A stretch of 64,000 nucleotides of DNA from Promethearchaeota archaeon (GTDB taxonomy: Archaea; Asgardarchaeota; Lokiarchaeia; Sigyniarchaeales; SOKP01): NCBI GenBank assembly GCA_019058445.1, contig JAHPZA010000001.1:141439-205438 (forward strand), written 5' to 3'. Under the pieces are notes generated by a model. The model was not told where the DNA came from and did not search any database. It worked only from the letters and a program-made list of their open reading frames with translations. How positions within the stretch are numbered: position 1 is the stretch's first letter; the number at the start of each line of letters is the position of its first letter. Both the position numbers and the translations under genes were made by a program. Of this stretch, positions 47,941 through 64,000 are shown piece after piece.

Positions 47941-48019
47941 AAATAAAATCATAAATAAGATTTTTTCTTTATTCGTAATTAATTATACTTCTAAAATAAT
48001 AAAATACTTCTATTAAATT

Positions 48020-48839: not shown

Positions 48840-49307
48840 ATGGCTCTTAAACTTTATATAGCTTCCATTGAAGAGAAAGAGAAGATTTATAATGCGTTGA
48901 TTGAATATTCCAAAGAACTTAAGCAATTTCAAGAACATACGTCAAGAGAGATTGCATCAGAGAAATATTTTGATGATTATTGGACCGAATCACAGAGGTT
49001 TCCTATAGTTGTATATGACGACGATAAGTTGATTGGATTTTGTTTACTTAGAAGTGAGAAAAACTATTACAGTATAGCAGAATTTTATATAAAACCAAAG
49101 TTCAGACGTTTTGGCTATGGTACAAAACTATTAAATTTTACACTAGAGTTCTGTAAAAGGAGGGGAATTCATAGTTCCATCATTGCTATTTCATTGGTAA
49201 AGAATATAAGAGCAAATGATTTTTGGATAGTCAATGGTTTTATTAGATATAAAGAGGTTTTTCTTGAAAATGAGAGGTATAATTGCAATTTAAAGGAATT
49301 GATTTAA
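48840..49307 (+). CDS. GNAT-family acetyltransferase
   Basis: IAEFYIKPKFRRFGYG..N..A..FW. Confidence 0.88.
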   Translation: MALKLYIASIEEKEKIYNALIEYSKELKQFQEHTSREIASEKYFDDYWTESQRFPIVVYDDDKLIGFCLLRSEKNYYSIAEFYIKPKFRRFGYGTKLLNFTLEFCKRRGIHSSIIAISLVKNIRANDFWIVNGFIRYKEVFLENERYNCNLKELI

Positions 49308-49382
49308 AATTTAATGATTTTAGGAAATATGAAAAAATAAAATCTATCGAATATTTATGTAAAAATAAACGTTAAATGTGAA

Positions 49383-50849
49383 ATGAAAATGGCAGATTTT
49401 GAACCTAAAATTGTAAGTAAAGAAGAATTGAGTAGAATCTCTGCTGATGTAAATCCAGAAGAATTATTACTATTTGACGATCATTGTTTAAATGTCCACT
49501 ATGAATCAAAAGTATTACTTGGAGCAAAAGAGCCGGGATCACCCTGGGTGGTAACGAAAGATATTAAAACCGGAGAGAAAGCGGAGATTCTTGATTGCAC
49601 CTCACAAAATTGGACTTTAGCATTGGGATTCGCCCATCCTGACGTAAATTATGCGGTCACCGAACAAATGAAAAGACTCACTCATGTCAAATCCGCTGGT
49701 GTTTCTCCTGCTCGAGCCAAATTTGCAAATAAATTATCCGAATTGGTCCCAGGAAGATTGAAAGGTGGCAGAGTTCATGTTAATAATTCAGGGGGTAGTT
49801 TAGCACTTGAAGCTGCAATAAAGCTCGCGCTAGTCGCAGGTAAAGGAGCGGATCAATTATTAGTGTTCAGGGGCGGATATCACGGGAATACATTAGCCAT
49901 GATAACCGCGTCACAACCAATTCATACCGTAACGCGATTTCGCCCATTTGGAGTGGATAGATTCGTTCGTTGTCCCCAACCGTATTGCTATAGATGTATG
50001 TGGAACTATAAAAATGGTTTGTATGGTAAAAAAGACCCTCAATGTAATTTGGAATGCTTTAATTTAGTGAAAGAATATTTACGGGGATTATCCTCAAGAA
50101 AAATAGCTGGAGTGATCTTAGAAGTATGTCAAGCAGCAGGGGGTCATATTCCTTTTCCGCCAGAGTTTCTGTTGAAATTAAGAGAAGTATGTGATGAAGA
50201 AAAGATTCTCATTATTTATGATGAGTCCCAAACAGCAGTTTGGAGGTCTGGAAAATATTTCTCTCTCACAGAGAGATATGAAAAGGAATTAAGTATTGAT
50301 GTGTCTCCTGATATGATGTGTTTTACGAAAGCCATTGGAGGAGGTTTCCCGTTAGGCGCGATGATCGCAAGCCCAAAGATTAAAAAGAGATTTAGTCCCT
50401 CAGAAGATCATACCACTTTTTCTAATACCCCAATAGGAATGACAGCTGGCCTAGCAGCATTTAAAGTTATTGAGCAAGGGAAAATTAATGAAAATTGTGA
50501 GAAGAGAGGCAAACAAATCACAAAGAGATTAAAAGAACTCCAAGAAAAATATGAAGTTATAGGAGATATTCGTGGACCAGGATTATTCATAGGAATTGAA
50601 TTAGTTAAAAACAAAGAATCAAGAGAACCTTTTTCAGAATTACTACAGGAAATGCTCGCTGAGGGAATAAAACAGAATATATTCTTTGGACCTAGCATGC
50701 CGTATTTAACCGGAACCGGGAAAATTATCATGCATAATCTAATTAAAATTAAACCTCCATTAGTAATTACTGAAGAAGATGCAGATTACATCTGTGAAAA
50801 ATTTGAAAGTGTGCTGAAAGCCTCACTACATACTCTTGACTTCAAGTAA
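49383..50849 (+). CDS. Class III PLP aminotransferase
   Basis: GGYHGNT, DESQT, KAIGGGFPLG, IRGPGLFIG. Confidence 0.92.
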   Translation: MKMADFEPKIVSKEELSRISADVNPEELLLFDDHCLNVHYESKVLLGAKEPGSPWVVTKDIKTGEKAEILDCTSQNWTLALGFAHPDVNYAVTEQMKRLTHVKSAGVSPARAKFANKLSELVPGRLKGGRVHVNNSGGSLALEAAIKLALVAGKGADQLLVFRGGYHGNTLAMITASQPIHTVTRFRPFGVDRFVRCPQPYCYRCMWNYKNGLYGKKDPQCNLECFNLVKEYLRGLSSRKIAGVILEVCQAAGGHIPFPPEFLLKLREVCDEEKILIIYDESQTAVWRSGKYFSLTERYEKELSIDVSPDMMCFTKAIGGGFPLGAMIASPKIKKRFSPSEDHTTFSNTPIGMTAGLAAFKVIEQGKINENCEKRGKQITKRLKELQEKYEVIGDIRGPGLFIGIELVKNKESREPFSELLQEMLAEGIKQNIFFGPSMPYLTGTGKIIMHNLIKIKPPLVITEEDADYICEKFESVLKASLHTLDFK

Positions 50850-51239
50850 ATTTTAAATTCATAAAAAAGAAATTTATTCTTTTTTTCCTATTATTTTAGT
50901 TTTTTAAAATTGGGTTACGTCTTCAATTATTATTATACCATGTGTACCATCAAACTTATATAATAAGGAGCCTTTTAATGATTCAATGAGACGAGTAACT
51001 TTAGTCGCACCGACTAGAAGAATGGATACACTGTCTTGCACTAGGCAAGTAGCAGCACCAAATATCCATTAGATCATTCAAACCCGTCTCTATTGATTTC
51101 TCTACTTTTTATCATTATATTCTCTGAATACTCCTCGTAATTTTAAGTTCTAAGGGGCGGGTTTAGAAATATTATATCTAAGAAAGATCTAACTCCCTCA
51201 TAACAAAAAAACATTAAAAAAAAAGGAGGTGGAAAGAAA

Positions 51240-51362
51240 ATGAATAAGAAAAAAAATAAAAACTTAGAAGAAATCTTGCAATCTCTTAATAATGACGAGG
51301 TGCTTGTTCTCTCGTACTCGTCAAAGGAGGATGAGGAGGATAAAAAGGATAATGATAATTAA
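51240..51362 (+). CDS. Putative 40 aa small protein (MNKKKNKNLEEILQSL...DNDN)
   Basis: Strong AGGAGGT SD just upstream of ATG 51240; below the ORF-track length cutoff. Confidence 0.5.
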   Translation: MNKKKNKNLEEILQSLNNDEVLVLSYSSKEDEEDKKDNDN

Positions 51363-51654
51363 AACTTGATCTTCGTATTTTATCACCACATTTTCTCAAT
51401 TTTTTCTTCAATGTAATCCTCTGAAAACTTGAATTCTTTATAAATATAAACATCAACAATCCTAAGAGAATGATAAAATAATTTTTCTTTATTTTTAGAA
51501 TAAATTTTTGCTCCAAATGCCTCAGCATTTTATTATAAAAAATATTGTCATTATGTAGCAAGATTTTAATAAAATTGGGGCAAAGCAGATTGGATAAATA
51601 CTCTCTTATCTTAATTCTAAAAGTATTAATATTTTATAGACCATAGAAGATAGT

Positions 51655-52221
51655 ATGAAATTTCAAAGTTTACTTGAAAAACCATCAGATAAAATATTAT
51701 TGATAACATTTATTCTCAGTTTTATAATGACATGGGTCTTTGTATTCTTTATTTTCGCCCCACTGCTTGCTCAATTTCCTCCAGGAGCAGGACTTATGGA
51801 TATGAAAGCTGCTTGGACCAAGAAAAACATGGACAAGATTATTGCTATATGGAAAAAAGAGTCTCTCTCACGTTATATTGAATTAATGACGTTTGTAAAT
51901 AATATAGATTTTGTTTTTATGTTTGTATACGGTTGGGCTGTATTCAGCGGATTATTACTGGTAGCTCGTCAATTAAAGGATTCAGAGAAGCTTCAAAAGT
52001 TTTATCTTAACCTATCAATAGTAGCTTGGGTGAGTGTATTATTCGATGTAATTGAGGGCATTTTTATTGCAATTATACTTCTCGATCCCTCGAATATTAC
52101 AGAAACTTCAGCCATAGGCGTTTCTTTATCGGCAACCCTTTGTATCATCGTATTATATAGCTGTGTGTTTCTCTGGATTATTGGATTACTAATCGTATTA
52201 GTAAAGCACTTGAAAAAATAA
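51655..52221 (+). CDS. Membrane protein
   Basis: ~4 hydrophobic segments, with DFVF and DVIE motifs. Confidence 0.7.
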   Translation: MKFQSLLEKPSDKILLITFILSFIMTWVFVFFIFAPLLAQFPPGAGLMDMKAAWTKKNMDKIIAIWKKESLSRYIELMTFVNNIDFVFMFVYGWAVFSGLLLVARQLKDSEKLQKFYLNLSIVAWVSVLFDVIEGIFIAIILLDPSNITETSAIGVSLSATLCIIVLYSCVFLWIIGLLIVLVKHLKK

Positions 52222-52295
52222 GAGATACAATCGAGATTTCTGGTCGAAAATCAAAATTTCCAAAATTTTTTATTTTTTAAGAATAAACATATAAT

Positions 52296-52691
52296 ATGTT
52301 TCAAACTATGGATCTTTTAACTCTATTACTGATAATATTAACAGTAGCCGTCATTGCAGCAGTTATAAATTTTATTATTGGAATGGTAGTCATGCTACGA
52401 ATGACTTCCTTAAAAGGATTAACTAAAGAAAAAAAGCCCGCCATAATTTTAAACACCATCTGGAGTATAGTCGTGTTTGTGTTCAGTTTCTCCCCTTATC
52501 TTTATATTATTGCATTTATAGTTAATCTAATTATTGGCCTGATTGCTTTAAGTTCGGATGAATTTTACGGGATAAAACGTTTTGGAAGACGTATAAAAAT
52601 CCTGTTTGCGGTTTTAATAATACAGTTTGTAATTATTATCGTAGCCTACATTATAATCGTGTTTATAATTTTTGCTTATTTACTTGGTTGA
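52296..52691 (+). CDS. Membrane protein
   Basis: Highly hydrophobic 131 aa ORF. Confidence 0.65.
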   Translation: MFQTMDLLTLLLIILTVAVIAAVINFIIGMVVMLRMTSLKGLTKEKKPAIILNTIWSIVVFVFSFSPYLYIIAFIVNLIIGLIALSSDEFYGIKRFGRRIKILFAVLIIQFVIIIVAYIIIVFIIFAYLLG

Positions 52692-53037
52692 ATTAAATTT
52701 TTTCAATTAGTTTCCTTTAGGATCATATTCTAGAAAAAAGCTGAACTAAATAATAATTTCATATCTTTATAGAGTTCTCTTCAATACTAATATGCCCTTG
52801 TTTGCTTAATATTCTCGCGTTTTATCTAAGGATGATATAATAAAATAGAGTTATATCCCTCTAATTTTTAAGTTTTTAAGAACAAAACAAAAAAAATGAG
52901 AGCCAAATCTTAACTCACAAAGATGCAATCCTCATATTATCTCCAGATTATTGACGATATATTTATTAATGGGGCTGAAACTGAAATATTGTGATACAAA
53001 ATTAAAATAAAATTTTAACATAAATTTATCGAGATAT

Positions 53038-53895
53038 ATGATAGACAATATTGATGAGGAGGATGTGAAATCTTCCAAATATAAGATAATTTTATTTTGC
53101 ACTATATACAATTTGATCGCAGAATTTTCAACGAGAGGAATAATCGGTTTTTTTTATAATCTTATGGTTTTATGGCTTTTTCTGGCATATTTCACATTTT
53201 TCTTAATTATAATTCATATTGCTTACACCAGTAAAGGATCTGACATCGCAATTTTATTTGGATCAATAACTTGGGCATTACCCATCGCATTTTTCTCGAC
53301 AGGTACCCCTTTTTTTACAGGAGAGATTATTGGTTATTCTTTAAGCATTATTATCATCATGTTCTTTATGTGGGGTATGACTCAAACTTGGTTGCCGCTG
53401 TATGTGAGCGGAAAATTTTTTGGTTGGAATATAGCAGATGGGAAACTCAGTCGAACAGGCGGGATTTTTTGTCTTTTGTATCTTTTTGGCTTCTGTGCTT
53501 TCGCATTTCCCGGAGCTATTAAAGGCCCAATATATTTGTATATAATTTCAATTATATTAATTATATTGTTTATTGTATTAACTCGGAAATTCATAAAATC
53601 TGCAAGAGAGAATCCACCTCAATTTAGCACCCCCCCTATTACTGAAAAAACTTATAGACAAATTGGAGATTTTACGATTTTAACTTACTTATTTTGGATA
53701 TCAGTCATAGTGGCATTACTTACCGGTGTTATAATCCCGATTTATTATCCTTTAACGAGTGTAATACGGCCCTTTTATATCCAAGCTTTTTTATTGATGA
53801 TATTATGGTCAGTAATTTCCGGAGTAGTTCAAACCATATACAGAAATAAAGTAGGACCATTTCCCATGCCCGGGATTTTAATCCCAAAAAAATAG
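53038..53895 (+). CDS. Polytopic membrane protein
   Basis: ~8 hydrophobic segments. Confidence 0.7.
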   Translation: MIDNIDEEDVKSSKYKIILFCTIYNLIAEFSTRGIIGFFYNLMVLWLFLAYFTFFLIIIHIAYTSKGSDIAILFGSITWALPIAFFSTGTPFFTGEIIGYSLSIIIIMFFMWGMTQTWLPLYVSGKFFGWNIADGKLSRTGGIFCLLYLFGFCAFAFPGAIKGPIYLYIISIILIILFIVLTRKFIKSARENPPQFSTPPITEKTYRQIGDFTILTYLFWISVIVALLTGVIIPIYYPLTSVIRPFYIQAFLLMILWSVISGVVQTIYRNKVGPFPMPGILIPKK

Positions 53896-53938
53896 TTTAT
53901 AAATAGAAATATCAGAGTAAAAGAAAAGGTTAACTTCT

Positions 53939-53980
53939 TGGCAATGCCTTGCTAGACAATTGGTGCACCAGAGGGTGCGG
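53939..53980 (-). other. 42 bp diverged fragment of 23S rRNA helix 96
   Basis: 32/42 identical to 62925-62966. Confidence 0.6.
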
Positions 53981-54056
53981 TATATATTTTTAATAATTTT
54001 TCAAGTATATATTGTAAATATCCAATTAGACTATCAATTAATAGTTCTTTTTTTAA

Positions 54057-54716
54057 TTAAGTCTCATTCTTGAATTGCGTAAGCATTAAATACCCTTGAA
54101 GTGCAAAGTAGGCAAATATCGTATACCAAATTACTTTTTGACTTATGATACCTAAGCCTTCATATGGTAGAAAATAGAACTGAATACCGATTAAAAGAAC
54201 TACAAGAGCGACTATAATTAGATATAATAGCATTCTGGGAAGATCCTTATTTAAATAAAAGGCAATTAAATAGAAAATCCACGTAAACAACAAAAAGATG
54301 TAAGTAAACAGAGCAAGATAATAATTGTAATAAAAAATTATCAGTAACATAAAAGTACAGGCAAATAAGACTCCACATATAATCCCTAAAGCAGCAGCTG
54401 CTTTTTGAACAGATGCAGTAAAGAAATGATATGAGGCTATTAACCCGGGAATTAGAAAAATGCTGAACAAAATAGAGCCAGTACCAGCAATTATCCTCGA
54501 AATCGTATTATCCTTCCCAGAGTGAGATACGGTTCTTACCAAATCACCAAGATAATTTTTCGCAAGTGAAAACCCCGGAGAAGTTGGATCCATTTCCGAA
54601 CCACCTCCATAAAAGAACATTGCGATGGTTGTCAGAACTACATATCCAACACAACCAATTATACTTAGCACAAAAGCTATTTCTTTCCAGTTTTTAACAT
54701 TCATTTTCAATCTCAA
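54057..54716 (-). CDS. DUF998-like membrane protein
   Basis: FFYGGG..GFS..NYLGDL..QK pattern; ~6 TM. Confidence 0.6.
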   Translation of the reverse strand: MRLKMNVKNWKEIAFVLSIIGCVGYVVLTTIAMFFYGGGSEMDPTSPGFSLAKNYLGDLVRTVSHSGKDNTISRIIAGTGSILFSIFLIPGLIASYHFFTASVQKAAAALGIICGVLFACTFMLLIIFYYNYYLALFTYIFLLFTWIFYLIAFYLNKDLPRMLLYLIIVALVVLLIGIQFYFLPYEGLGIISQKVIWYTIFAYFALQGYLMLTQFKNET

Positions 54717-54892
54717 TTTAAAATCTTATATTTTATAAATTAAGTATTATTTCTTGCTTAAAATAAATATAACTTATTGTTTTAAACGAAATTTTTTGTA
54801 TTTACAAGTCCTGCAAACAATCTAAATTCAGGAACATACCCTCTCAAAACTTCCACTTAAAGTATTAAATAAATCATTCATTTAGTTGATCT

Positions 54893-55894
54893 ATGGGAAA
54901 ATTAGATGGAAAAGTAGCATTAATCACTGGAGCGGCTGGTGGAATTGGAAAAGCAACTTCAAAACTCTTTCTTGAAGAAGGTGCTAAAGGAGTGGTAATG
55001 GCAGATATTTGGGATGAAATGGGTGAAAAAACAGCAAAAGAACTCGGACCAAATGCGAAATATATTCATACAGATGTTTCTCAAGAAACCGATATAAAAA
55101 AGGCTATTGATTTCGCTGTTGATGAATTTGGACAACTTGATATCATATTCTCAAACGCTGGTAATCCGGGTCCTGTAGGAGTAATTGAAGATATTCCGAC
55201 TGACGAATTTGATCTTACCGTTGCTATTCATCTTCGCGCCGCGTTCTTATGCATGAAACATTCTATACCAATAATGAAAAAACAGGGTTCAGGATGTTTT
55301 ATAACTACAAGTTCGGTCGCGGGTTTTCAACAAGGGTTGGGTACACTACCATACTCACTTTCTAAGGCGGGAATTATACAACTTACACGAATTGCCGCTG
55401 TGGAATTAGGGGCGTATGGAATAAGAGCAAACGCTATTGCGCCAGGAGGCATATCGACAGGTATTTTTGGTCAAGGATTTGGTTTATCTCCTGAAGTAGC
55501 GGTAAAATTTGGGAAAATGATTAAAGACATTCTTGCGATTTATCAGCCTATTCCGCGTGCAGGGTTACCGGAAGATATTGCACATGCAGCTTTATTTCTC
55601 GCAGAAGATTCAAGCAGTTTTATTACTGGAGAAACTCTTAAAGTAGATGGTGGGCTTCTATCTGGAAGGATACCGCAAGATCCTGAAGAGCTTATGGAAA
55701 AATATTTTAACATTATAGCTCAATTAGATCCGGAAGATCAGAAAATCGTAATTGCTAAGATAGGAGAAGGCGCTCAGAAAGCCACTAAGGATATGAAATA
55801 TTTAAAACCGATCGCTCGGGAACAAATGCTCAAAAGGATGCAGAAATTAATGAAAGTACAACAAAAACTCATGAAAGAATCGGCCAAGAAATAA
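54893..55894 (+). CDS. Short-chain dehydrogenase/reductase
   Basis: TGAAGGIG, NAG, YSLSK, VDGG. Confidence 0.93.
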   Translation: MGKLDGKVALITGAAGGIGKATSKLFLEEGAKGVVMADIWDEMGEKTAKELGPNAKYIHTDVSQETDIKKAIDFAVDEFGQLDIIFSNAGNPGPVGVIEDIPTDEFDLTVAIHLRAAFLCMKHSIPIMKKQGSGCFITTSSVAGFQQGLGTLPYSLSKAGIIQLTRIAAVELGAYGIRANAIAPGGISTGIFGQGFGLSPEVAVKFGKMIKDILAIYQPIPRAGLPEDIAHAALFLAEDSSSFITGETLKVDGGLLSGRIPQDPEELMEKYFNIIAQLDPEDQKIVIAKIGEGAQKATKDMKYLKPIAREQMLKRMQKLMKVQQKLMKESAKK

Positions 55895-55941
55895 GACAAT
55901 TTATTTGATGTGTTTTTGTAAGAAAAAAGAAAAAAATCTAG

Positions 55942-56113
55942 ACTCAGGAACACACCCCCTCATTAATCGCGACTTACCATTTTTCATCATGCTTACCACT
56001 TCACACACACTTGACTTCACTCCTGAACATTCAAAGCCCGAACCACGAGTCCTTTTTCAACACCACACACTCGTGCTGTTGAGAACAGCGGGCTAAATAG
56101 GTCGCCCGGAAGC
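55942..56113 (-). repeat. Direct-repeat copy of the 23S rRNA 3' end plus trailer (partner at 62375-62551)
   Basis: 56017-56113 identical to 62455-62551 (97 bp); the remaining ~75 bp are similar but diverged. Confidence 0.96.
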
Positions 56114-57191
56114 ATTCTATTATCTACATTTCTATTCTGTTTAAATCATAACTGATTTCATGATCACTCTGATAAGAATGTAAAGTTATTTAAAGTTAAA
56201 AAAGGAGACTTTTATTGCTAAAATTATCGAGAACATCTGCCGAAATATCAATAAAATGATAGCAACAAAAATCTCTAAATTAAAATAATATCATCATATA
56301 TAAAGAAAAAAATAAAATCTAATACTCTCATATTAAAATTAAATAAGAACATATTTTTTTTTTTGATAGAATAGTGTAAATAGAAAGAAATGATCTTGAA
56401 TTATTGAAAACTATTAGTCTCTTGATTTTTTTAAAATAATTTAAACTCATTTATAGTGAAGTTTTTATATATAAGATACAAAATTTTAATGAGTTACAAG
56501 GATTTTTTCATAAAAATTTTCTTGTAGCTCAACAAGGAGTAAAAAAGAGAACATTTGCCAAAAAAATCAAATTATTTTGGTTAAACAACACGTCGCGTTG
56601 ATATTTGGCACGTTTTCTTTTATATCTCCTTTAACTATTTAAAAAATCTTGTTGTTTAAAAATATTAGTTTTTACCTATCTATACTTTACTTTATTTTTT
56701 CATAAAAATTGCGACGTGTGTTAAATTGATAATTTTATTTAAAAATTCTAGTCTTGAATCCTACAAAGAATTTATTTTTATTACGCGAGTATCTACTCAA
56801 AAAGAATTAAATAGCAAGTCTTTTAGAAACTTATATCATTTTCAATTTCTTAGGGAGTTTTCTTGGGATGATAATAATTATTATGGTAATATAAGTAAAA
56901 GTTTTAAAAATTTCTTTATTATTCGTAAAACATCATTAGAAAAGGTTAATACGATATATTTAAAATTATGATCAACCTATTTATGGGGAATTGAATAATA
57001 TTTATGCTTCTAAATTTCTTTTTTTCTTTCTTTTTATTTTGTATAAATAAAAATGATAAAGTTAAATATATCTTACACAAAACAGTTTACTGAAAAAACA
57101 ATAATTACAGGGTATTAATTTTATAATATTTGCTTAAAGATTAATTATAGTTTTATTCATTGTGATATGTATTTTAATAGTGTTAAAGTTC

Positions 57192-57542
57192 CTATAATTC
57201 TGTCTCAATTTTTTCTATTTTCTTTAACTGCTTAAGCTCTTTACCCAAAAAATTATGGAGCTCTACAACAGCTCTTTTTGTCATTATTAACTCACATTGT
57301 AATTCAACAGTTAATAGTTGTTCTGACATCCTTTTTTCAATATCATCTTTATTTAAGTTTTGCTCCAAAAGTTCATTATTTTTTATTATTAAACTATTTG
57401 TATCAATATTTACAAAACTCAATCGAAAATCATATGGGTTTCTAAAACCTCCAATGGCTCCTGTTACATAGTACTTTTCAAAATTTTGAGCCTTAATATA
57501 TTTTTTCTTTGGTTGATATTTTTTTAAAGTCTGATCCTCCAA
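57192..57542 (-). CDS. DUF3467-like protein
   Basis: YYVTGAIGG..DFRLSF..ELIMT..ELHNFL pattern. Confidence 0.55.
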   Translation of the reverse strand: MEDQTLKKYQPKKKYIKAQNFEKYYVTGAIGGFRNPYDFRLSFVNIDTNSLIIKNNELLEQNLNKDDIEKRMSEQLLTVELQCELIMTKRAVVELHNFLGKELKQLKKIEKIETEL

Positions 57543-57548
57543 ATATAA

Positions 57549-58256
57549 TCATCTCTTTATATTTTCCAATAATATTATTTCAGGTAAGGGATTCGTGTTA
57601 TCATCTTTTGGATTACTAGAAACAGAGGTAGTTAGTCGAATTGACGTTCTTACCCTTTTATGAAGCATTAGATTAGTAAACTCTCTCAACCTTCTATGAA
57701 AAATTTCCTCTGGTTGATATGATTGATGTAAGATTTTTTGTTTTTCAAAAGATTCTTGAATTTCATCCCTACTAAAAACATTATCAATATCCTTTTCATT
57801 ATAAATCAGATCTGAAATACTTTGTTTTAATGATGCATAAATATTTAAACCACTTTTAGTAATGTAAAATCTATTATCATCAGTTTTTTTAAACAAAAAG
57901 CCAATAGATTTAGAAATTTTAGGTAAGTTAATATTGTGTGGTATTTTTATAGCACTATCAGGATTAAAAGCTTTCTTATTCGTTAGATGCATAATGAATT
58001 TTTCCTTGTCATTAAGCCTATTATAAATTTCTGACTCAATTATCTTAAATTTTGAACCATTTATTTGTATTTTTGGACAATAGTTTTGTATTAGATTAAA
58101 TATTGTAAAGTATTTCTGAATGGTTATCCAATGACGATCAATATTTTTTAGTGATTTAATTTCATTTATATTATATTCTTTATCCTCTTCTAACAGATTC
58201 AAATTGAGTATTAATGACATTGTAATATTTAATGGATCTTTTGTGATTTCAAACAC
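57549..58256 (-). CDS. Hypothetical protein, probable winged-helix domains
   Basis: YNINEIK..HWITIQKY; FYITKSG wing motif. Confidence 0.55.
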   Translation of the reverse strand: MFEITKDPLNITMSLILNLNLLEEDKEYNINEIKSLKNIDRHWITIQKYFTIFNLIQNYCPKIQINGSKFKIIESEIYNRLNDKEKFIMHLTNKKAFNPDSAIKIPHNINLPKISKSIGFLFKKTDDNRFYITKSGLNIYASLKQSISDLIYNEKDIDNVFSRDEIQESFEKQKILHQSYQPEEIFHRRLREFTNLMLHKRVRTSIRLTTSVSSNPKDDNTNPLPEIILLENIKR

Positions 58257-58362
58257 CTAATTTTTGTCGATATTTTCATTATAATGAAAATAATTTTAAT
58301 TTATAAATATATTTTCTATTTTCTATAATTTAAAGGTTGCACTTTTTTTATTGTAGTGAAAA

Positions 58363-59064
58363 TCACCTAATTATCTTTGAACAATAGTAAAAATTGTATA
58401 CGATATAAAATATTTTGTTACATCGATTACATTTTATAATATAACTCTCAAAACTTTCAAAATTATTATTATTTTCTTCAATAAATTCCTCCAAATCATT
58501 CGAACATTCACATTTTATCCTTACTACAAAATGGAAAATGTTATTTATAAATTCATAATGTATTGTATAATCATTTCCGTCTTTCGGTAAATTATGTCCG
58601 TCATGAGGAAGATTGATATTGTATCTTTCTTCTAATTCTTTCACTTTATTTTCTATTATTTTATCAGTATGTTCTTCAAATTGAAAGTTATCCCAAAATA
58701 ACCTAACAAAATCTTCTTTATTTATATATATATGATTATTTTCTTCATCTTTTAGATCAAAAAAATTAGACAATTCTTTACATATCCCTTTTTGCTTTAA
58801 TTCATTATAAACCATTTCTCCTACTGGTTTACTGAGAGTGCAATCTAGTTTAGTAACATGATGTCCTTTCCTATCTTTACGTGATTTGTAAATAGTCAGA
58901 TCATGTTTTTCTAGTGCTCTACAATTTAATTCATCGTCAAATAAGTCCGTTTTAAAGATATTTGGATTTCCTAAATGACAGATAAAATAAATTAAAAGTG
59001 GATGCTCATTGGCTATATCATATAATAATGCTGAATTATGCAAATATGCTAATGTAGTTTTCAT
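58363..59064 (-). CDS. Hypothetical protein with C-terminal CxC/CxxC
   Basis: 233 aa ORF; KCEC..CNRC. Confidence 0.6.
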   Translation of the reverse strand: MKTTLAYLHNSALLYDIANEHPLLIYFICHLGNPNIFKTDLFDDELNCRALEKHDLTIYKSRKDRKGHHVTKLDCTLSKPVGEMVYNELKQKGICKELSNFFDLKDEENNHIYINKEDFVRLFWDNFQFEEHTDKIIENKVKELEERYNINLPHDGHNLPKDGNDYTIHYEFINNIFHFVVRIKCECSNDLEEFIEENNNNFESFESYIIKCNRCNKIFYIVYNFYYCSKIIR

Positions 59065-59156
59065 CTTAATAAAAAGGATTTTTACCTATAATTAATCATT
59101 TTAATTTTAACAAATTTAAATATTATCAAATTATTTAAATTTAAAAAAAAATTATC

Positions 59157-59600
59157 TCAAATTTTTTTAAAGCCTTTAGAATCTAATATATCATTACATA
59201 ATTTATCACATTTTTGAATGAAAGCATTCCTACGTCCAATATGATAAAATTCTACTTTGCTGTATTTATTGCAGAGAGAATAGACTTTATTGCATAATTC
59301 AGACAGGTGTGGATAATTAATTCTCCAGTTTTTTTTAATCTGATTTACAGCTAATTTACTATCAGAATAGACTTTTATAACCCATCTCGTAAATTTCTCA
59401 GCTTCTTTTAAAGCATTAATAATAGCTAAATATTCAGCTGTATTGTTTGTTGCATTACCAATATACTCGCTTTTTTGATAAATAATTTCATCGTCTTTGA
59501 CATATATGAATGACCAGGAAGCAGGACCGGGATTCTTTCTAGCAGCTCCATCAACATAAATTTCCAATATTTCTCCTCGTTTCACAAGTTGTTTTTTCAC
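59157..59600 (-). CDS. rnhA: Ribonuclease HI
   Basis: YVDGAARKNPGPA, TNNTAEY, YSDSKL, N..CDKL. Confidence 0.92.
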   Translation of the reverse strand: MKKQLVKRGEILEIYVDGAARKNPGPASWSFIYVKDDEIIYQKSEYIGNATNNTAEYLAIINALKEAEKFTRWVIKVYSDSKLAVNQIKKNWRINYPHLSELCNKVYSLCNKYSKVEFYHIGRRNAFIQKCDKLCNDILDSKGFKKI

Positions 59601-59813
59601 TATTTTTCCTCAATAAATTACTTATCAATCAAATTTCTTTTAAAATCGCTAAAAATTTTAGAAGGATTTAAGTTTGACATCTATGTATTAAATAAAATCG
59701 ATGATATTTAAATCGAAAGTGTCTACAAGATGTTAAGAAAAATAGGAAAAAAATAAAAAAAAATCTAAAATCAGGTAAAACCCTCTTTATGATCACAAAT
59801 TTTTATTTTTACG

Positions 59814-60008
59814 TTATCCAATTCTTCTTTTCTTAAATGGGCCCTTTGCAAAAATTCTACCTCTTTCATCATGTCCAAGTTGCCAAACTTCACCACAATC
59901 TTCATTCGAACATACACCGATTACATTTTCATGAAAAATTGTTTTTGTGATTGTCATTTTTGACCTACAATGTGGACAAGATGATTTTTTGAATATTTCA
60001 AGATCCAA
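59814..60008 (-). CDS. Small zinc-finger protein
   Basis: CPHC..CSNEDC; GGTGA SD and TATA-like box (~60135) upstream. Confidence 0.6.
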   Translation of the reverse strand: MDLEIFKKSSCPHCRSKMTITKTIFHENVIGVCSNEDCGEVWQLGHDERGRIFAKGPFKKRRIG

Positions 60009-60419
60009 TTTAAAATCACCTTTTCAATAGTTTAATTGGTAATAGCTGTGTTAGCATTATTTGTTTTTCAAATCTTTTTTATTAACTTAATTTTTAATAA
60101 ATCATTTATTTGTTATCTAGTGCACAGAAGTTGTATATAAATGATAGGTTAATAGATTAGATCGTCCAGATCCGATCTAACAAAAAATCTCTGGATGTTC
60201 CGACATAACTCTCTCACCTTTTCTTTTCAACACAAAAATCCGTGACTTTGCCCATCCCCTCCATTAAAAGGCGAATTGAGGGGATTGTGTCGGTAACCGC
60301 AAATGTTGTTTTTAATTTTTTAAGTAAGGCCCTAAAGTAGTCAATTGACCTAAATTCGAAAGTAAAATTATTTATAAAAAGCTATAAAAACAAAAGAACT
60401 AAATTCTTGATCTTTTCTT

Positions 60420-60995
60420 TTAAGGAGAGAAAAATGATCTAATTCTCGCGCATTTATCAGGATGACGCAACGGAATTAGGCAAGCGAAATCTCTTATATT
60501 ATCGTGTCCTGTAATGTATAATTGATATACATTCCGGTCATTTGGTAGATAAACTCCGCTATGAATTGAAAATTGGTTTAATAGCTCTTGTAGAATGCAA
60601 ATTTTTATATTTTCTGAAGAATAGATTGAAAGCATGGGTTGATTCGTTCCCGTTGTCGTGGCGCTCCCTTCCGCGTCAAAAAAACCCGCTATCCATTGCT
60701 GTTGAAATTCTGGTTTAATTAATCTTACCAACTCTGGATTATTTTTAACTTCCAATATTTTGGTTACCAGCTCTTTATGAAAAAACCGGAGCCTATAATG
60801 AAGGCGATTAGTATGCGGTCTAATAATAATATCTTTATTAATCAAATCTCTGATGAGAGGTTGGATTTGTTCCAACCAACCTAGTGAGGCTGAATCTAAA
60901 TCAAATTCGTATCCTTTTTGGGGGCTAGTTCTTACATAGGCATCCTCGGCAACTCCGCAGATATACCAGAATTCTGAGAACAATTTAAATTCCAT
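60420..60995 (-). CDS. Free-standing LAGLIDADG homing endonuclease
   Basis: WYICGVAEDAY (degenerate motif 1), WIAGFFDAEGS (motif 2), IPLRHPDK. Confidence 0.88.
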   Translation of the reverse strand: MEFKLFSEFWYICGVAEDAYVRTSPQKGYEFDLDSASLGWLEQIQPLIRDLINKDIIIRPHTNRLHYRLRFFHKELVTKILEVKNNPELVRLIKPEFQQQWIAGFFDAEGSATTTGTNQPMLSIYSSENIKICILQELLNQFSIHSGVYLPNDRNVYQLYITGHDNIRDFACLIPLRHPDKCARIRSFFSP

Positions 60996-61189
60996 ATTAT
61001 TAGATTTTTAAAAGAAATGTTTAAAGCCTATGACCTACTTAACTTAGTGGTTTTTTTATAAGAGAAAAAGGAGAAAAAATCTTTAGAGTCCAATTAGAAA
61101 AATCTTTTTCAATACAATCCAATTTTTAATTAAAATTATTAAATTATTATTAAATTTTTTTTTAAGACAGGATATATTAATACGTTAAG

Positions 61190-62227
61190 ATGGAAGAAAT
61201 AAAACAATTCAAAGAAACCAATTCTCCAAAATTAATTTACATTGATCAAAATCATTGGTCAAAATTGGAAAGAGTATATCACGAAATCGAAAGAGATTCA
61301 ATAGTAGAAAATTTATTAGAGAAAATTTTTGACCTAAAAGAAAATGGGAAAATAAAAATTCTAATTGATATAAATCGTAAGATTGAGACATCTCAACGAG
61401 ATATTAAGGAAACACGAGAAAGGCTTACAGATTTAATGCTCGAGTTATCAGATGGTTATTTTGTTCTTCCTTTTTTAGTTCTTGAGGAATTTGAAATAAT
61501 GAATTATTTTAGTAGAAAACTAGGAATCCGTCAATATAATATATTAGATTTGGCAATCGGGCAAGAATTTCAACATTTAATGGTAGGAGAACCTTCTATT
61601 TCAAGTGATGAAATTGATAAGGATGAATTAAATCAAATTAATCATAAAATTCATGAATTAATTCAAAATCCATCATTTATTAAAGATATTTTTTGCAAAC
61701 CATCAGAAAGAGATGATGAAAGTAAGCTCAAATATATTAGAGATGCTGAAAATGTGCGTATACCGTTATATTCAATGGAAACAAATAGAGAGCGCAAAAT
61801 ATATCAAACAACTCATGATTTCACGCATTTAATGAGAAAAATTTTTAAAACATACAAAGTAACTGATGATTATATAGGAAAAATTCCAGATATTGATAGA
61901 GCATCAAATGCTTTGATGCTTCGTAATAACATTCCTAGAAATTTAGGGGAATATAAGGATAGATTAAAATTTATGAAAAATTTTCCCATGTTTTATACTC
62001 ACTGCACGTTAATAGGTTTCAGAGACAGAGATTTAAGACGTCAAATCCAAGCAAATGATTTGATAGATATTGTAAGTTTTGTATTACCAATTGTTTATTT
62101 TAATGTAGTCGTGGGCGAAACATATTTTATAAACTTAGCAAAACAAGCTAAACTAGATTCTGAATACAATTCTGCTCTGTTTAGTAAATTGTTAGAACTA
62201 AAAGAATATTTAGAAAATTTAAGTTAG
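61190..62227 (+). CDS. PIN-like domain protein (putative nuclease)
   Basis: IYIDQNHW..IE..NDLID..Y..VVVGE acidic motif spacing. Confidence 0.6.
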   Translation: MEEIKQFKETNSPKLIYIDQNHWSKLERVYHEIERDSIVENLLEKIFDLKENGKIKILIDINRKIETSQRDIKETRERLTDLMLELSDGYFVLPFLVLEEFEIMNYFSRKLGIRQYNILDLAIGQEFQHLMVGEPSISSDEIDKDELNQINHKIHELIQNPSFIKDIFCKPSERDDESKLKYIRDAENVRIPLYSMETNRERKIYQTTHDFTHLMRKIFKTYKVTDDYIGKIPDIDRASNALMLRNNIPRNLGEYKDRLKFMKNFPMFYTHCTLIGFRDRDLRRQIQANDLIDIVSFVLPIVYFNVVVGETYFINLAKQAKLDSEYNSALFSKLLELKEYLENLS

Positions 62228-62606
62228 CAGGTTAAACAAATTTTCTTCAGACATAAATAAACTTAAGCAATCATAATTGAAGTTGTTTTAATATGTCAAT
62301 TAACATTAAAATTTTAACGTTTTAGAATTATTTTTCATAAAAAAAATAAGAAAAAAATAAATAAAAAAATCTTAACTCAGGAACACACCCCCTCACCAAT
62401 CGCTTCTTTTCTTGCCATTATTCAACACGCTTACCACTTCACACGCACTTAACCTCACTCCTGAACATTCAAAGCCCGAACCACGAGTCCTTTTTCAACA
62501 CCACACACTCGTGCTGTTGAGAACAGCGGGCTAAATAGGTCGCCCGGAAGCTCCCTACGTACACCCCTGTCTCACCAACCCCGTCTTTTACGGGTGCACT
62601 CGTCCT

Positions 62607-62848
62607 AATCCCGCGGTTGCTGTCACCAGCCCCCGCTCTAATTAGTTTGACAAGCTAATCATTTGGACTATGATGCTATGTTTTGCGCTGCGCTACTGCG
62701 CTATGCTCCACGCTACTGCGCTTCGCACTGTAAAATGCACAATTGTAAAATAATACATGTCCGGCTGACTTCCGGCCTACACAGGGCATAAAGCCTTGTC
62801 AGCCGCATCAGCCCAAATCACAAACTCAGCAAAATAATCTTACGGAAA
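62607..62848 (-). other. Supersized expansion segment at helix 98 (ES39), ~240 nt
   Basis: Long insert between conserved flanks ..CGTCCT and AGGAATGGATGACTATTTTCGGGG. Confidence 0.8.
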
Positions 62849-62874
62849 AGGAATGGATGACTATTTTCGGGGCC

Positions 62875-62909
<35 letters not shown>

Positions 62910-63032
62910 TAGCGCGTAGCTGCCCGGCGATGCCTTGTCAGACAACCGGTACACCAGAGGCGCCGGCAAAATGTTCCTCTCGTACTGATTTTCCCTTACC
63001 CTCAGTCCTCCAACAAACCCAGTAGATAGAAT

Positions 63033-63075
<43 letters not shown>

Positions 63076-63107
63076 TTAATGGGCGTACAGCCCCACCCTT
63101 GGGAGTT

Positions 63108-63140
63108 ATGCGCTCATTTCCAATACACGGAAATAATATG
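63108..63140 (-). other. ~31 nt insertion in the 23S helix 91 loop (relaxed-BHB intron or expansion; ends approximate)
   Basis: H91 spans 51 nt instead of ~20; internal hairpin UUAUUUCC/GGAAAUGA. Confidence 0.6.
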
Positions 63141-63225
63141 TGCGCTCCCAGGATAGGAAGAGCCGACATCGAGGAAGCAAGCCACGAGGTCGATAGGAGC
63201 TCTTACTCGTGACAACTCTGTTACC

Positions 63226-63256
63226 TTCCCGCGCATCGAGGCATTCTCGGATGCGT
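63226..63256 (-). other. 31 nt BHB intron in the 23S peptidyl-transferase centre (~E. coli 2446/2447)
   Basis: UUAC-CCCG-GG|A-CGCAU...AUGCG-CGGG-AA|G-GUAA is a canonical bulge-helix-bulge. Confidence 0.88.
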
Positions 63257-63269
63257 CCCGGGGTAATTT

Positions 63270-63363
63270 TTATAGAACGCACAGTAAATCTGCGCATTTA
63301 TATAGAACCCACAAAACTCGAGTCGCTAATATCTATCTATTAACTCCATTGATGTGGAAGTTT
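63270..63363 (-). other. Two stacked BHB-type introns (64 nt at 63300-63363 and 30 nt at 63270-63299) at one 23S site (~E. coli 2430s)
   Basis: 5' exon AUAG-AA pairs with either of two CUAU half-sites; removal restores GGUGAUAGAAAAAUUACCCC. Confidence 0.8.
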
Positions 63364-63860
63364 TTCTATCACCTCAACAAGCCACACAAGCAGCGTTAAG
63401 GATCGCTAGACCAGGCGTTAGCCTCAGGATTCCTTGGTAGTCAGAATCCAGTCAGGCCAGCTTTTGCTCTTAAACTCTGCGGCGGATTCCTGACCCGCCT
63501 GAGCTGACCATTGGTTACTCCAGATACCTTTTCTGGAGTGAGCCGCCCCAGCCAAACTGCCCACCTGCGGGTGTCCGTCACTTTCACGACGTTAGCGGTT
63601 CCAGAAAGGAAAGCCGGTGTTCCAATGTTGCTCCCCTACACCCGAAAGTGTAGGATCGACGCTCCCGACTACGCTCTGTATCCAGTCCAAAATCGCAACA
63701 ACAAGCTGCAGTAAAACTCCACGGGGTCTTCTCGTCCCACTGGGCTTCTCCGGACCGTTCGCCGGAGTGTGATTTCAATCGTCAGGAGGTTGGGACAATA
63801 GGGAGAACGTTGGACCATTCATGCACGTCTGAACTTACCAGACAAGGCATTTGGCTACCT

Positions 63861-63889
63861 TTCTCTCGAGGCTCGAGATGAGAGCTCGT
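63861..63889 (-). other. 29 nt BHB intron in 23S (~E. coli 1927)
   Basis: ACU-CUCU-UA|A-CGAG...CUCG-AGAG-AA|A-GGU; removal restores CUCUUAAGGUAG. Confidence 0.9.
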
Positions 63890-64000
63890 TAAGAGAGTTA
63901 TAGTTACTCCCGGCGTTTAGCAGGACTTACTGCGGTTGTAACCGCGATTTATCAGACTGCCACTGGCCAGGTTTCAGCCTCTGTAAACAAGCTTTCGCTC

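What the first reader, a model, noticed from the sequence alone, without database searches (positions are those of the whole stretch)
55942..62551. Integrase-free cargo cassette anchored on the 23S rRNA 3' end and carrying a homing endonuclease
Seen: ~175 bp covering the 23S terminus and trailer is directly repeated 6.4 kb apart, with a 97 bp identical core and a diverged distal trailer. It encloses PIN-like, LAGLIDADG, zinc-finger, RNase HI, wHTH-like and DUF3467-like genes. No recombinase is present. The layout mirrors the nrdD island: duplicated 3' end of a conserved gene, accessory cargo, and a LAGLIDADG gene inside or adjacent. Inference: a shared strategy in which homing-endonuclease breaks and homologous recombination at essential-gene 3' ends import cassettes.
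Basis: partly seen in the sequence, partly recalled or inferred. Interest (0 to 1): 0.82.

Follow-up and report, generated by a model that had tools for sequence, protein, structure and literature searches.

The report
Accessory gene block behind 23S tail
In this Lokiarchaeia-type Asgard genome, about 6.2 kb of strain-specific accessory genes lies between the 23S rRNA gene and a spare copy of that gene's tail, a layout that recurs in related genomes and suggests the rRNA tail works as a gene-capture site with no recognisable integrase.

Summary
The last 55 nt of the 23S rRNA plus about 145 nt of trailer (62353-62551) recur in direct orientation at 55920-56113. The copies are 6438 nt apart and share an exactly identical 97-nt core. 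A third, decayed tail relic lies at about 54804-54859.

The enclosed low-GC block holds at least five accessory units, each with its own patchy distribution. None matches a recombinase. A same-genus genome (G003) joins its 23S tail almost directly to the flank and lacks the block.

At least four relatives (G024, G038, G030, G070) carry direct copies of their own 23S tail downstream of the gene, bracketing unrelated cargo. G006 has a short trailer copy, and G158 and G160 show partial cases.

The LAGLIDADG gene is real, but its relatives are encoded in a 23S intron at the peptidyl-transferase site. G000 has a 31-nt ORF-less mini-intron at that site. The endonuclease therefore most likely targets that site, about 730 nt upstream of the 3' end, and not the 3' end itself.

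My best reading is serial gene capture by recombination through the rRNA tail. The endonuclease is a passenger or an occasional helper.

The contig ends inside the 23S, and the read-level test failed, so integrated versus episomal form is untested.

This scan noted similar 23S-tail cassette arrays before on other genomes.

The parts
62497..64000 (-). 3' third of the 23S rRNA gene (Rfam model positions 1921-2987), cut by the contig end
   Evidence: Rfam RF02540, 812.9 bits. Contig C1 ends at window base 64000.
63226..63256 (-). 31-nt ORF-less mini-intron at the PTC site (CCCCGGG|GTAACAG). Relatives carry an intron encoding a family-A LAGLIDADG at this same site.
   Evidence: Alignment with intronless G002 and intron-bearing L109. 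The centroid fold gives 3-nt bulge, 4-bp helix, 3-nt bulge.
62353..62496 (-). Native 23S trailer T1. It is the 3' strand of the long leader-trailer processing stem, includes the motif GGGGTGTGTTCCTGA, and ends in a T-run.
   Evidence: Genus alignment A2. In G002 the trailer +5..+129 pairs with the leader -157..-6, 108 intermolecular pairs.
62455..62551 (-). Proximal copy of the 97-nt identical core (last 55 nt of 23S plus the first 42 nt of trailer)
   Evidence: Exact string identity with 56017-56113.
61190..62227 (+). 345-aa orphan, convergent with the 23S. The family is patchy and sits in defence-island-like neighbourhoods elsewhere.
   Evidence: Found in 13 of 161 class genomes and 0 of 9 other same-genus genomes. 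Homologs lie next to nSTAND3, HNH, PLDc_2, SLFN_AlbA_2 and AAA_15/21 genes. No Pfam hit.
60420..60995 (-). Free-standing family-A LAGLIDADG homing endonuclease gene (191 aa), same strand as the 23S. Both motifs carry acidic residues.
   Evidence: PF14528, E 1.6e-13. Present in only 2 of 161 class genomes. Relatives are intron-encoded in 23S. Motif alignment.
59814..60008 (-). 64-aa CxxC...CxxC zinc-ribbon ORF
   Evidence: ORF list. Only weak zinc-ribbon family hits, E about 0.02-0.07.
59734..59802 (-). Possible fourth, strongly decayed relic of the tail end (GAGGG..CCTGA..TAGATTTTTTT). Support is weak.
   Evidence: 64% over 56 nt. 86% over 44 nt, E 5e-6, but A-rich. Not recovered by the motif search at 2 or fewer mismatches.
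59157..59600 (-). Type-1 RNase H (147 aa), the only copy in the genome and patchy among relatives
   Evidence: PF00075/PF13456, E about 1.5e-13. NCBIfam RNase HI models hit below their cut-offs. Found in 9 of 26 relatives, 1 of 9 same-genus.
57192..59064 (-). Conserved three-gene module (233 aa, 235 aa, 116 aa). It is self-contained, found in 8 other genomes with different neighbours, and has winged-helix-like N-terminal parts.
   Evidence: AF2 pLDDT 85.7 and 65.2. Fold searches give only wHTH-type matches at Z about 5 and no recombinase fold.
56114..57191 (.). 1.08-kb AT-rich (about 21% GC) stretch with no ORF longer than 81 aa
55920..56113 (-). Distal copy: last 55 nt of 23S plus complete trailer T2 with motif and T-run. 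It abuts the stop codon of the convergent SDR gene.
54893..55894 (+). Short-chain dehydrogenase gene lying between tail copy T2 and relic T3 (an older layer). Not found in the syntenic G003 contig.
   Evidence: PF13561, E 1e-54. No hit in the syntenic G003 contig.
54804..54859 (-). Third, decayed relic of the tail end (T3)
   Evidence: Apart from T1 and T2, this is the only match in the 4.6-Mb genome to GGGGTGTGTTCCTGA at 2 or fewer mismatches. Member of family D2.
53931..53974 (-). 44-nt scrap resembling 23S positions 62917-62960 (77%). Marginal.
   Evidence: E 1.4e-4 against own 23S. E 5.8e-5 against G002 23S.

Best explanation
The block 56114-62352 is a mosaic of strain-specific accessory genes placed between the stand-alone 23S rRNA gene and its former tail by recombination through the tail sequence.

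Proposed mechanism: incoming DNA from a related lineage carried its own copy of the highly conserved 23S end and processing-stem trailer. It was either a circle integrating by a single homologous crossover, or a linear piece anchored by homology in the 23S with an illegitimate join 55 nt before the 3' end. Recombination regenerated an intact 23S with tail T1 and pushed the other tail copy (T2) 6.4 kb downstream.

The same thing had happened before. The SDR gene sits between T2 and an older relic, T3. The region is therefore a serially growing cassette stack, comparable to tandem islands at tRNA genes but with no recognisable integrase.

The LAGLIDADG gene inside the block belongs to a lineage of 23S-intron endonucleases. 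It most likely cuts intron-less 23S alleles at the PTC site, which in this genome is protected by a 31-nt ORF-less mini-intron. If DNA is exchanged between cells, such a break could help carry the adjacent block along by co-conversion, but it is not needed for the layout.

Shown: the repeats, the relic, absence of the block in relatives, patchy cargo, recurrence in other genomes, and the endonuclease-intron relation.

Inferred: the recombination route, its direction, and any role of the endonuclease.
For: The repeat is real and specific.
- The tail motif occurs only three times in 4.6 Mb, and all three copies lie within 7.6 kb downstream of the 23S.

The two copies look like two alleles, not a duplicate decaying in place.
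- There are 0 differences in the first 97 nt and 18 differing columns in the next 96 (p 1.4e-6).
- 16 of the 18 fall on columns that vary among orthologous tails (p 8e-4).

The block is absent or different in relatives.
- The same-genus G003 contig is syntenic with window 41560-54160 and then runs into the 23S tail, with no block and no SDR.
- Cargo units are patchy and independent: the 345-aa protein in 13/161 genomes, the module in 9/161 with unshared neighbours, LAGLIDADG in 2/161, RNase HI in 9/26. None except a distant RNase HI occurs in the 9 other same-genus genomes.
- The block has low GC, 21-28% against 30-40% in the flanks.

No recombinase was detected.
- No hit in four HMM libraries, and no recombinase-like fold for the two largest module proteins.

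The architecture recurs in other genomes.
- G024: 147 nt, 96%, 2 kb apart. G006: 67 nt, 92.5%. G038, a single-contig genome: 161 nt, 84%, 4.5 kb apart. G030: 48 nt, 90%.
- G070 has four further direct copies within 10 kb downstream of its 23S that pass a whole-genome search, and none elsewhere in the genome.
- The left ends of the copies differ between genomes (-55, -10, +52, +100, -150). This fits homology-driven joins better than one fixed att core.
- Cargo there is Fic, LRR, MazEF, ParE, a Ras GTPase and TPR, with no recombinase.

The endonuclease is tied to a 23S intron site.
-.
Against: - The contig ends inside the 23S, and the assembly method is unknown.
- Logan k=31 contigs of the probable source run break exactly at the 97-nt core. 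They cannot distinguish an integrated block from a 6.4-kb circle plus an empty site.
- No read-level or long-read evidence was obtained.
- No donor genome carrying this block behind its 23S was found.
- An integrase acting in trans, or one since lost, would leave the same footprint.
- Three cargo proteins (345 aa, 116 aa, 64 aa) were not folded, so an unrecognised recombinase is not excluded.
- Tail relics do not decay monotonically with distance: the possible relic at 59.7 kb is more decayed than T2.
- G003 also lacks SDR and most of the 219-aa gene, so it is not a clean empty site.
Confidence: 0.5

Rival explanations
1. Classical site-specific integration. A small integrative element with an attP that mimics the 23S end and tail was inserted by a tyrosine or serine integrase. 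That integrase has since been lost, or is encoded elsewhere, or is one of the orphan proteins. Repeated rounds gave the stack, as with tandem islands at tRNA and tmRNA genes.
For: - Direct repeats made of the 3' end of a conserved RNA gene, with an intact gene regenerated, are the textbook att footprint.
- The identical core has a sharp inner boundary at 56113/56114.
- The block has low GC.
- The three-gene module is bracketed in G015 by a 44-nt direct repeat taken from the 3' end of an RFC-like gene, with no room for other genes. This hints that the module moves as a unit.
Against: - No integrase family hit in the block, or in the tail-bounded cassettes of five other genomes.
- The module proteins fold as winged-helix-like DNA binders, not recombinases.
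- Repeat boundaries differ widely between genomes.
- Module copies share no conserved termini.
- The cargo is a mosaic of units that occur separately elsewhere.
Confidence: 0.2
2. Endonuclease-driven import. The free-standing LAGLIDADG cuts intron-less 23S alleles. Repair from an allele carrying the mini-intron, the downstream endonuclease gene and the neighbouring cargo copies the whole block. The distal tail copy serves as the far-side homology arm.
For: - Family-A relatives are encoded in an intron at CCCCGGGGGT|AACAGAG of the 23S.
- G000 and G158 both have a mini-intron of about 30 nt at that site, with the endonuclease gene 1.3-1.5 kb downstream of the 23S on the same strand.
- A second family shows the same split: it is intron-encoded in G070, but free-standing 440 nt behind the 23S in G020, which keeps an ORF-less insert of about 113 nt at that site.
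- Another free-standing LAGLIDADG follows the 16S 3' end.
- This matches collaborative homing as described for a cyanophage free-standing endonuclease and an ORF-less psbA intron (background cited in PMC6083498, found).
Against: - Homing converts a recipient to the donor arrangement and does not itself create direct repeats.
- Tail-bounded cassettes in G024, G006, G038, G030 and G070 carry no free-standing endonuclease.
- Only 1 of the 17 sampled relatives with at least 1.6 kb assembled downstream of the 23S has a LAGLIDADG there.
- The G158 copy lacks a start codon for its first 75 or so codons.
- Cleavage activity and DNA exchange between cells are untested.
Confidence: 0.12
3. Assembly artefact. 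The 6.4-kb unit is a separate circular element or belongs to another strain, and was threaded into the chromosome through the 97-nt shared core.
For: - The contig ends in the rRNA gene.
- Logan contigs of the probable source run stop about 30 nt into the core on every side. The island contig covers 56084-62484 and the flank contig ends at 56046. The graph therefore allows both traversals.
Against: - The core is only 97 nt, shorter than standard reads, and both copies are flanked by copy-specific sequence. Ordinary reads and k-mers above 100 would resolve it.
- A third relic (T3) and lower-identity tail copies in other assemblies, including a single-contig genome at 84% identity, cannot be repeat-collapse artefacts.
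- Even under this rival, a real molecule must carry a 23S tail next to the cargo.
Confidence: 0.1
4. Local partial duplication of the 23S 3' region, including its intron endonuclease, followed by decay and later insertions. The endonuclease gene and the distal tail would be what remains of a second 23S fragment.
For: - The endonuclease is of intron type and lies between the native 23S and the partial copy in sense orientation.
- 23S-like scraps occur downstream: 53931-53974 here, and two scraps with a tandem unit of about 232 nt in G158.
Against: - No 23S exon sequence flanks the endonuclease gene.
- 4.3 kb of unrelated genes separates it from the partial copy.
- The differences between the copies follow ortholog variability and not uniform decay.
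Confidence: 0.05

Closest known systems
Tandem genomic islands at tRNA/tmRNA gene 3' ends (integrase-mediated), and archaeal 'gene capture' at tRNA genes
   Same: - Direct repeats are copies of the 3' end of a conserved RNA gene.
- The functional gene is regenerated.
- Newer insertions sit next to the gene and older att relics lie further out.
- The cargo is strain-variable and compositionally deviant.
   Different: - The target is the 23S rRNA end plus its processing-stem trailer, not a tRNA.
- No integrase is recognisable here or in the cassettes of five other genomes.
- Repeat boundaries differ between genomes.
- Cassettes are very small (1-3 genes) and occur independently elsewhere.
Collaborative homing: a free-standing homing endonuclease plus an ORF-less intron (cyanophage F-CphI with the psbA group I intron; T4 mobE trans homing, PMC2790892)
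   Same: - The endonuclease gene lies outside the intron but close to the target gene.
- The host allele carries an ORF-less intron at the site where relatives of the endonuclease are intron-encoded.
- Spread would depend on co-conversion of flanking DNA.
   Different: - This is an archaeal bulge-helix-bulge mini-intron in rRNA spliced by host enzymes, not a group I intron.
- It is a LAGLIDADG enzyme in a cellular chromosome, not a phage.
- No cleavage or homing data exist.
Archaeal rRNA-intron LAGLIDADG endonucleases (the I-DmoI and I-PorI type; rDNA-targeting examples discussed in PMC2602781)
   Same: - Size (about 190 aa).
- Two LAGLIDADG motifs in one chain.
- Close relatives encoded in 23S introns at a functional-core site.
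   Different: Here, and in G158, the gene lies outside the rRNA gene, 1.3-1.5 kb beyond its 3' end, among accessory genes.
Integron cassette arrays
   Same: - A stack of small, promoter-poor cassettes of one to three genes.
- Cassettes are separated by a recurring boundary element.
- Growth appears to be at the end next to a fixed anchor.
   Different: - No IntI-type integrase.
- The boundary elements are copies of the anchor gene's own tail, not attC hairpins.
- Gene orientation is mixed.

Membership tests
Integrase-type genomic island at an RNA gene 3' end | Direct repeats formed by duplication of the target gene's 3' end, with the gene left intact | tested here: met
   55920-56113 vs 62353-62551, with a 97-nt identical core. 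The 23S reaches model end 2987.
Integrase-type genomic island at an RNA gene 3' end | Tyrosine or serine recombinase gene inside the element | tested here: not met
   No recombinase family in Pfam, NCBIfam, PHROGs or PADLOC for any ORF of the block. Models of the 233-aa and 235-aa proteins gave no recombinase-like match. The 345-aa, 116-aa and 64-aa proteins were not folded.
Integrase-type genomic island at an RNA gene 3' end | Presence or absence polymorphism among close relatives | tested here: met
   The G003 contig lacks the block. Cargo was not found in the 9 other same-genus genomes, except a 48%-identical RNase HI elsewhere in one.
Integrase-type genomic island at an RNA gene 3' end | Excision to a circle and an empty site | not testable with these tools
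Junction patterns were not found in JGI contigs.
LAGLIDADG homing endonuclease (single-chain, two-motif) | LAGLIDADG domain and two motifs with catalytic acidic residues | tested here: met
   PF14528, E 1.6e-13, over residues 97-174. Motif 1 (ICGVAEDAY) and motif 2 (IAGFFDAEG) align with ALADG and FFDADG of relatives. Assignment of the catalytic residues is by alignment only.
Collaborative homing pair (free-standing endonuclease plus ORF-less intron) | ORF-less intron in the target gene at the insertion site used by intron-borne relatives of the endonuclease | tested here: met
   L109 and L110 carry the family-A gene in an intron at CCCCGGGGGT|AACAGAG. G000 has a 31-nt insert there and G158 about 30 nt. 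G002 has none.
Collaborative homing pair (free-standing endonuclease plus ORF-less intron) | The endonuclease cleaves the intron-less allele and not the intron-bearing one | not testable with these tools
   Needs a cleavage assay.
Integron | IntI integrase with attI, and attC-bounded cassettes | tested here: not met
   No integrase was found. The boundaries are copies of the 23S tail.
Type-1 RNase H | RNase H domain | tested here: met
   PF00075 at 51.5 bits against a cut-off of 25.8. NCBIfam RNase HI equivalog models hit below their cut-offs, so the exact subfamily is open.
   No Pfam PIN hit, even at E 10. The nearest named Atlas cluster is PIN, found on 23% of its members, at score 0.81, which is a lead only.

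The most novel reading that the evidence does not exclude
In Lokiarchaeia, and by this scan's earlier notes possibly in other archaea and some bacteria, the end and processing-stem trailer of a stand-alone rRNA gene acts as an integrase-free gene-capture site. Small cassettes flanked by tail copies can pop out and re-enter any genome that shares the conserved tail, using ordinary homologous recombination. Intron-derived homing endonucleases parked just behind the rRNA gene, paired with ORF-less mini-introns, supply double-strand breaks that drag the neighbouring cassettes between lineages.
Probability: 0.25. Interest if true: 0.85.

Novelty: new variant of a known kind. Interest (0 to 1): 0.62.

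Why it matters
If the 23S tail really is a recombination anchor for small cassettes, it would be a route of gene flow in Asgard archaea that needs no element-encoded integrase. It would also explain why rRNA flanks are hypervariable and break assemblies.

The second point may be more solid. Two unrelated LAGLIDADG lineages are intron-encoded in some genomes. In others they sit free-standing just behind the 23S, and the intron there is reduced to an ORF-less mini-intron. That gives a testable model for how archaeal rRNA mini-introns persist and move, by homing in trans.

I found no paper describing either pattern in the searches I could run. That is a limited search, not proof of novelty.

Tried and rejected
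- Read-level test. The look-up of sequencing runs gave one probable source run and three same-study runs, all kept only as Logan contigs.
- Exact-protein look-ups returned only k=31 Logan contigs that break at the repeat core, which is uninformative on integration.
- Patterns for the empty-site junction and the circle junction found nothing in JGI metagenome contigs. This is uninformative, because the strain may not be there.
- An Rfam family search of the own genome missed even the known partial 23S, so I used BLAST instead.
- tblastn of the cargo against 19 loci downstream of the 23S in relatives found nothing. No donor synteny was found for the 345-aa gene: its homologs are not next to a 23S.
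- I first read the G070 LAGLIDADG as lying downstream of the 23S, because Rfam ended its alignment early. BLAST showed it is inside a 23S intron.
- No conserved termini exist upstream of the three-gene module across seven genomes, so I dropped the idea that the module is a transposon with defined ends.
- No tandem iterons or notable repeats occur in the 1.08-kb AT-rich stretch. No tRNA is present in the window.
- The TnpB explanation from an earlier scan note on another genome does not apply here: no TnpB or IS family hit.
- The Tn7-at-nrdD idea for the neighbouring island was not supported by the ORFs I scanned.
- Foldseek against the PDB gave no match at E 0.001 or better for either model.

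Full report
**Observation.** The window is the last 64 kb of contig C1 of a 4.6-Mb, 10-contig, 31% GC assembly, and window base 64000 is the contig end. Rfam finds the 3' third of an archaeal 23S rRNA on the minus strand at 62497-64000, model positions 1921-2987. No other 23S piece exists in the assembly.

The reported repeat is real. 55973-56113 and 62411-62551 are 95% identical, 6438 nt apart and direct. The similarity extends with one 5-nt indel to 55920-56113 vs 62353-62551. The core 56017-56113 = 62455-62551 is identical over exactly 97 nt. The unit therefore consists of the last 55 nt of the 23S plus about 145 nt of trailer down to a T-run.

**What the repeated piece is.** An alignment of six same-genus tails shows the 23S end, the proximal trailer and a distal motif (GGGGTGTGTTCCTG followed by a T-run) are conserved, while the middle varies. 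In G002, which has the whole gene, the leader (-157..-6) pairs almost continuously with the trailer (+5..+129). That gives 108 intermolecular pairs, and the motif forms the outermost helix. G002 has no 16S within 11.7 kb upstream.

The repeat is thus a complete spare 3' strand of the processing stem plus terminator of a stand-alone 23S unit. In the whole G000 genome the 15-nt motif occurs, at 2 or fewer mismatches, only three times: in the native tail, in the distal copy, and in a decayed third relic at about 54828-54842 between the SDR gene and the 219-aa gene. A possible fourth, A-rich relic at 59734-59802 is weak.

**The two copies look like alleles.** All 18 differing columns lie in the distal 96 columns and none in the first 97 (Fisher p 1.4e-6). 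Sixteen of the 18 fall on columns that also vary among the orthologous tails (p 8e-4). These two tests are not independent, because the conserved columns lie mostly in the first half. Each copy carries its own derived states. This fits one tail having evolved as a working tail in another lineage before arriving here. Ongoing gene conversion of the proximal part would also fit. Uniform decay of a local duplicate fits less well.

**Content of the block.** GC falls to 21-28% inside, against 30-40% in the flanks. The ORFs are listed here in order from the 23S outward.
- **345-aa orphan (61190-62227, convergent with the 23S).** It is found in 13 of 161 class genomes and in none of the 9 other same-genus genomes. 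Its homologs sit beside nSTAND3, HNH, PLDc_2, SLFN_AlbA_2 and AAA_15/21 genes. The Atlas gives only unnamed clusters.
- **191-aa LAGLIDADG (60420-60995).** PF14528.
- **64-aa zinc ribbon.**
- **Type-1 RNase H (59157-59600).** It is the only copy in the genome and is found in 9 of 26 relatives.
- **Three-gene module (57192-59064).** It recurs in eight other genomes with unrelated neighbours.
- **1.08 kb of AT-rich DNA without genes**.

No recombinase family is hit in Pfam, NCBIfam, PHROGs or PADLOC. AlphaFold models of the 233-aa and 235-aa module proteins (pLDDT 85.7 and 65.2) match only winged-helix regulators at Z about 5, and no recombinase. 'wHTH-like' is weakly supported.

**Relatives.** Same-genus G003 has a 14-kb contig that is syntenic with window 41560-54160. 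It then runs, after a remnant of the 219-aa gene, straight into the 23S tail, with no block and no SDR. G001's 23S lies about 7 kb from sequence that in G000 is 35 kb away. The whole region downstream of the 23S is therefore flexible.

Searching each relative's own 23S end and tail against its downstream region gave direct copies in several genomes:
- G024: 147 nt, 96%, 2.0 kb apart
- G006: 67 nt, 92.5%, 1.2 kb apart
- G038, a single-contig genome: 161 nt, 84%, 4.5 kb apart
- G030: 48 nt, 90%, 4.9 kb apart

That is 3 of 15 relatives with at least 5 kb assembled downstream, plus G006, which has less.

G070 has four further partial copies that pass a whole-genome search, plus a 47-nt match seen only in the local search. 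All are direct, all lie within 10 kb downstream of its 23S, and none occurs elsewhere in its 4.7 Mb. The enclosed genes are Fic, an LRR protein, MazEF and ParE pairs, a Ras-family GTPase and a TPR protein, with no recombinase. The inner ends of the copies differ between genomes: -55, -10, +52, +100 and -150.

In G160 the same three-gene module lies 190 nt from a 23S 3'-end fragment whose junction differs from that in G000. In G015 the module is bracketed by a 44-nt direct repeat taken from the 3' end of an RFC-like AAA+ gene. Module copies share no conserved termini.

**The endonuclease.** Family A is rare, present only in G000 and G158 among 161 class genomes. In G158 it also lies downstream of the 23S, by 1.3 kb and on the same strand. 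The large protein database holds nine relatives. Those with retrievable context are inside 23S genes. The intron sits at CCCCGGGGGT|AACAGAG in the peptidyl-transferase region.

G000's own 23S has a 31-nt insert at that site (63226-63256), whose centroid fold is a 3-4-3 bulge-helix-bulge. G158 has about 30 nt there, and G002 has none.

A second family repeats the pattern. It is intron-encoded in G070. In G020 it is free-standing 440 nt behind the 23S, and the G020 23S keeps an ORF-less insert of about 113 nt at the corresponding site. A third free-standing LAGLIDADG follows the 16S 3' end at the end of G000 contig C6.

The likely target of the G000 enzyme is therefore the intron-less PTC site, about 730 nt upstream of the 23S 3' end. 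The arrangement resembles collaborative homing (free-standing endonuclease plus ORF-less intron), which is known from phages (PMC2790892; background in PMC6083498). Only 1 of the 17 sampled relatives with at least 1.6 kb assembled downstream has a LAGLIDADG there. The endonuclease is therefore not a regular part of tail-bounded cassettes.

**Mechanism.** I favour recombination through the tail (confidence 0.5). DNA bearing a related tail plus cargo recombined with the resident 23S end. The route was either Campbell-type integration of a circle or a one-sided homologous anchor with an illegitimate join at -55. This duplicated the tail, and earlier rounds left T3 and perhaps other relics.

The rivals are:
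- a lost or trans-acting integrase (0.2)
- endonuclease-driven co-conversion as the cause of the block (0.12)
- an assembly or episome artefact (0.1)
- decay of a partial 23S duplicate (0.05)

The artefact cannot be dismissed. The contig ends in the rRNA gene, and Logan's k=31 contigs break at the core. Against the artefact, the core is shorter than a read, the copies have private flanks, and low-identity arrays exist in other assemblies.

**Novelty and prior notes.** Literature searches found papers on Asgard mobile elements that integrate at tRNA genes, and Tn7-like elements at nrdD, but nothing on rRNA-tail cassette stacks or on free-standing archaeal rRNA-intron endonucleases. This scan's own earlier notes describe similar 23S-tail arrays in Methanomethylicia, Heimdall-group and other Asgard, DPANN and Dehalococcoidales genomes. 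I treated them as leads only. The recurrence I report rests on my own searches in the relatives of this genome.

I class the finding as a new variant of a known kind: tandem islands at RNA gene ends, here at an rRNA tail and without an integrase. It carries a second, better-supported variant: a collaborative-homing-like split between a mini-intron and its endonuclease in archaea.

Noticed in passing
G000 contig C6 end (L085:12286-14220): The contig ends in the 16S 3' end. About 240 nt downstream, on the same strand, lies another free-standing two-motif LAGLIDADG gene (235 aa). It is followed by a 231-aa membrane protein that is 44% identical to the 219-aa gene downstream of the 23S (54057-54716). 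Both rRNA genes therefore have paralogous downstream neighbours.
   Followed up: partly
L106 (G070:C35) and L036 (G020:C216): A second LAGLIDADG family is encoded in a 770-nt 23S intron at GGGTTTAGACCGTCGTGAG| in G070. In G020 it is free-standing 440 nt behind the 23S, and that 23S keeps an ORF-less insert of about 113 nt at the site. G002 also has an ORF-less insert of about 117 nt there.
   Followed up: partly
L081:10325-12631 (G015:C14): The three-gene module is bracketed by a 44-nt direct repeat (86%). One copy lies within the last codons of an RFC-like AAA+ ATPase gene. This is the same 'duplicated 3' end of a conserved gene' footprint, but at a protein-coding gene.
   Followed up: partly
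It encloses a Shedu SduA_C protein, an AAA_15/21+SLFN_AlbA_2 protein and a radical-SAM activase. The LAGLIDADG there is part of an intein in the 734-aa ORF. A preprint (10.1101/2025.07.27.667033) reports Tn7-like elements using nrdD as an attachment site in related archaea, but I saw no Tn7 genes in the ORFs scanned.
   Followed up: partly
window 53931-53974: A 44-nt stretch is 77% identical to 23S positions 62917-62960, in the same orientation (E 1.4e-4). It may be an older rDNA scrap. The G003 contig happens to begin at the equivalent 23S position.
   Followed up: partly
L077:2213-2629 (G158:C207): Just after the 23S tail lies a unit of about 232 nt repeated in tandem. It is made of the tail end plus a 26-33-nt scrap resembling 23S positions about 1941-1973.
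   Followed up: no
window 22806-23036: Three tandem copies of a 60-nt unit (84-95% identical in 111-nt register) lie inside the 596-aa ORF 21907-23697.
   Followed up: no
window 63270-63363 and 63226-63256: Compared with G002, the G000 23S has about 125 extra nt at the PTC region, split into a 94-nt and a 31-nt insert. G158 has only the insert of about 30 nt.
   Followed up: partly
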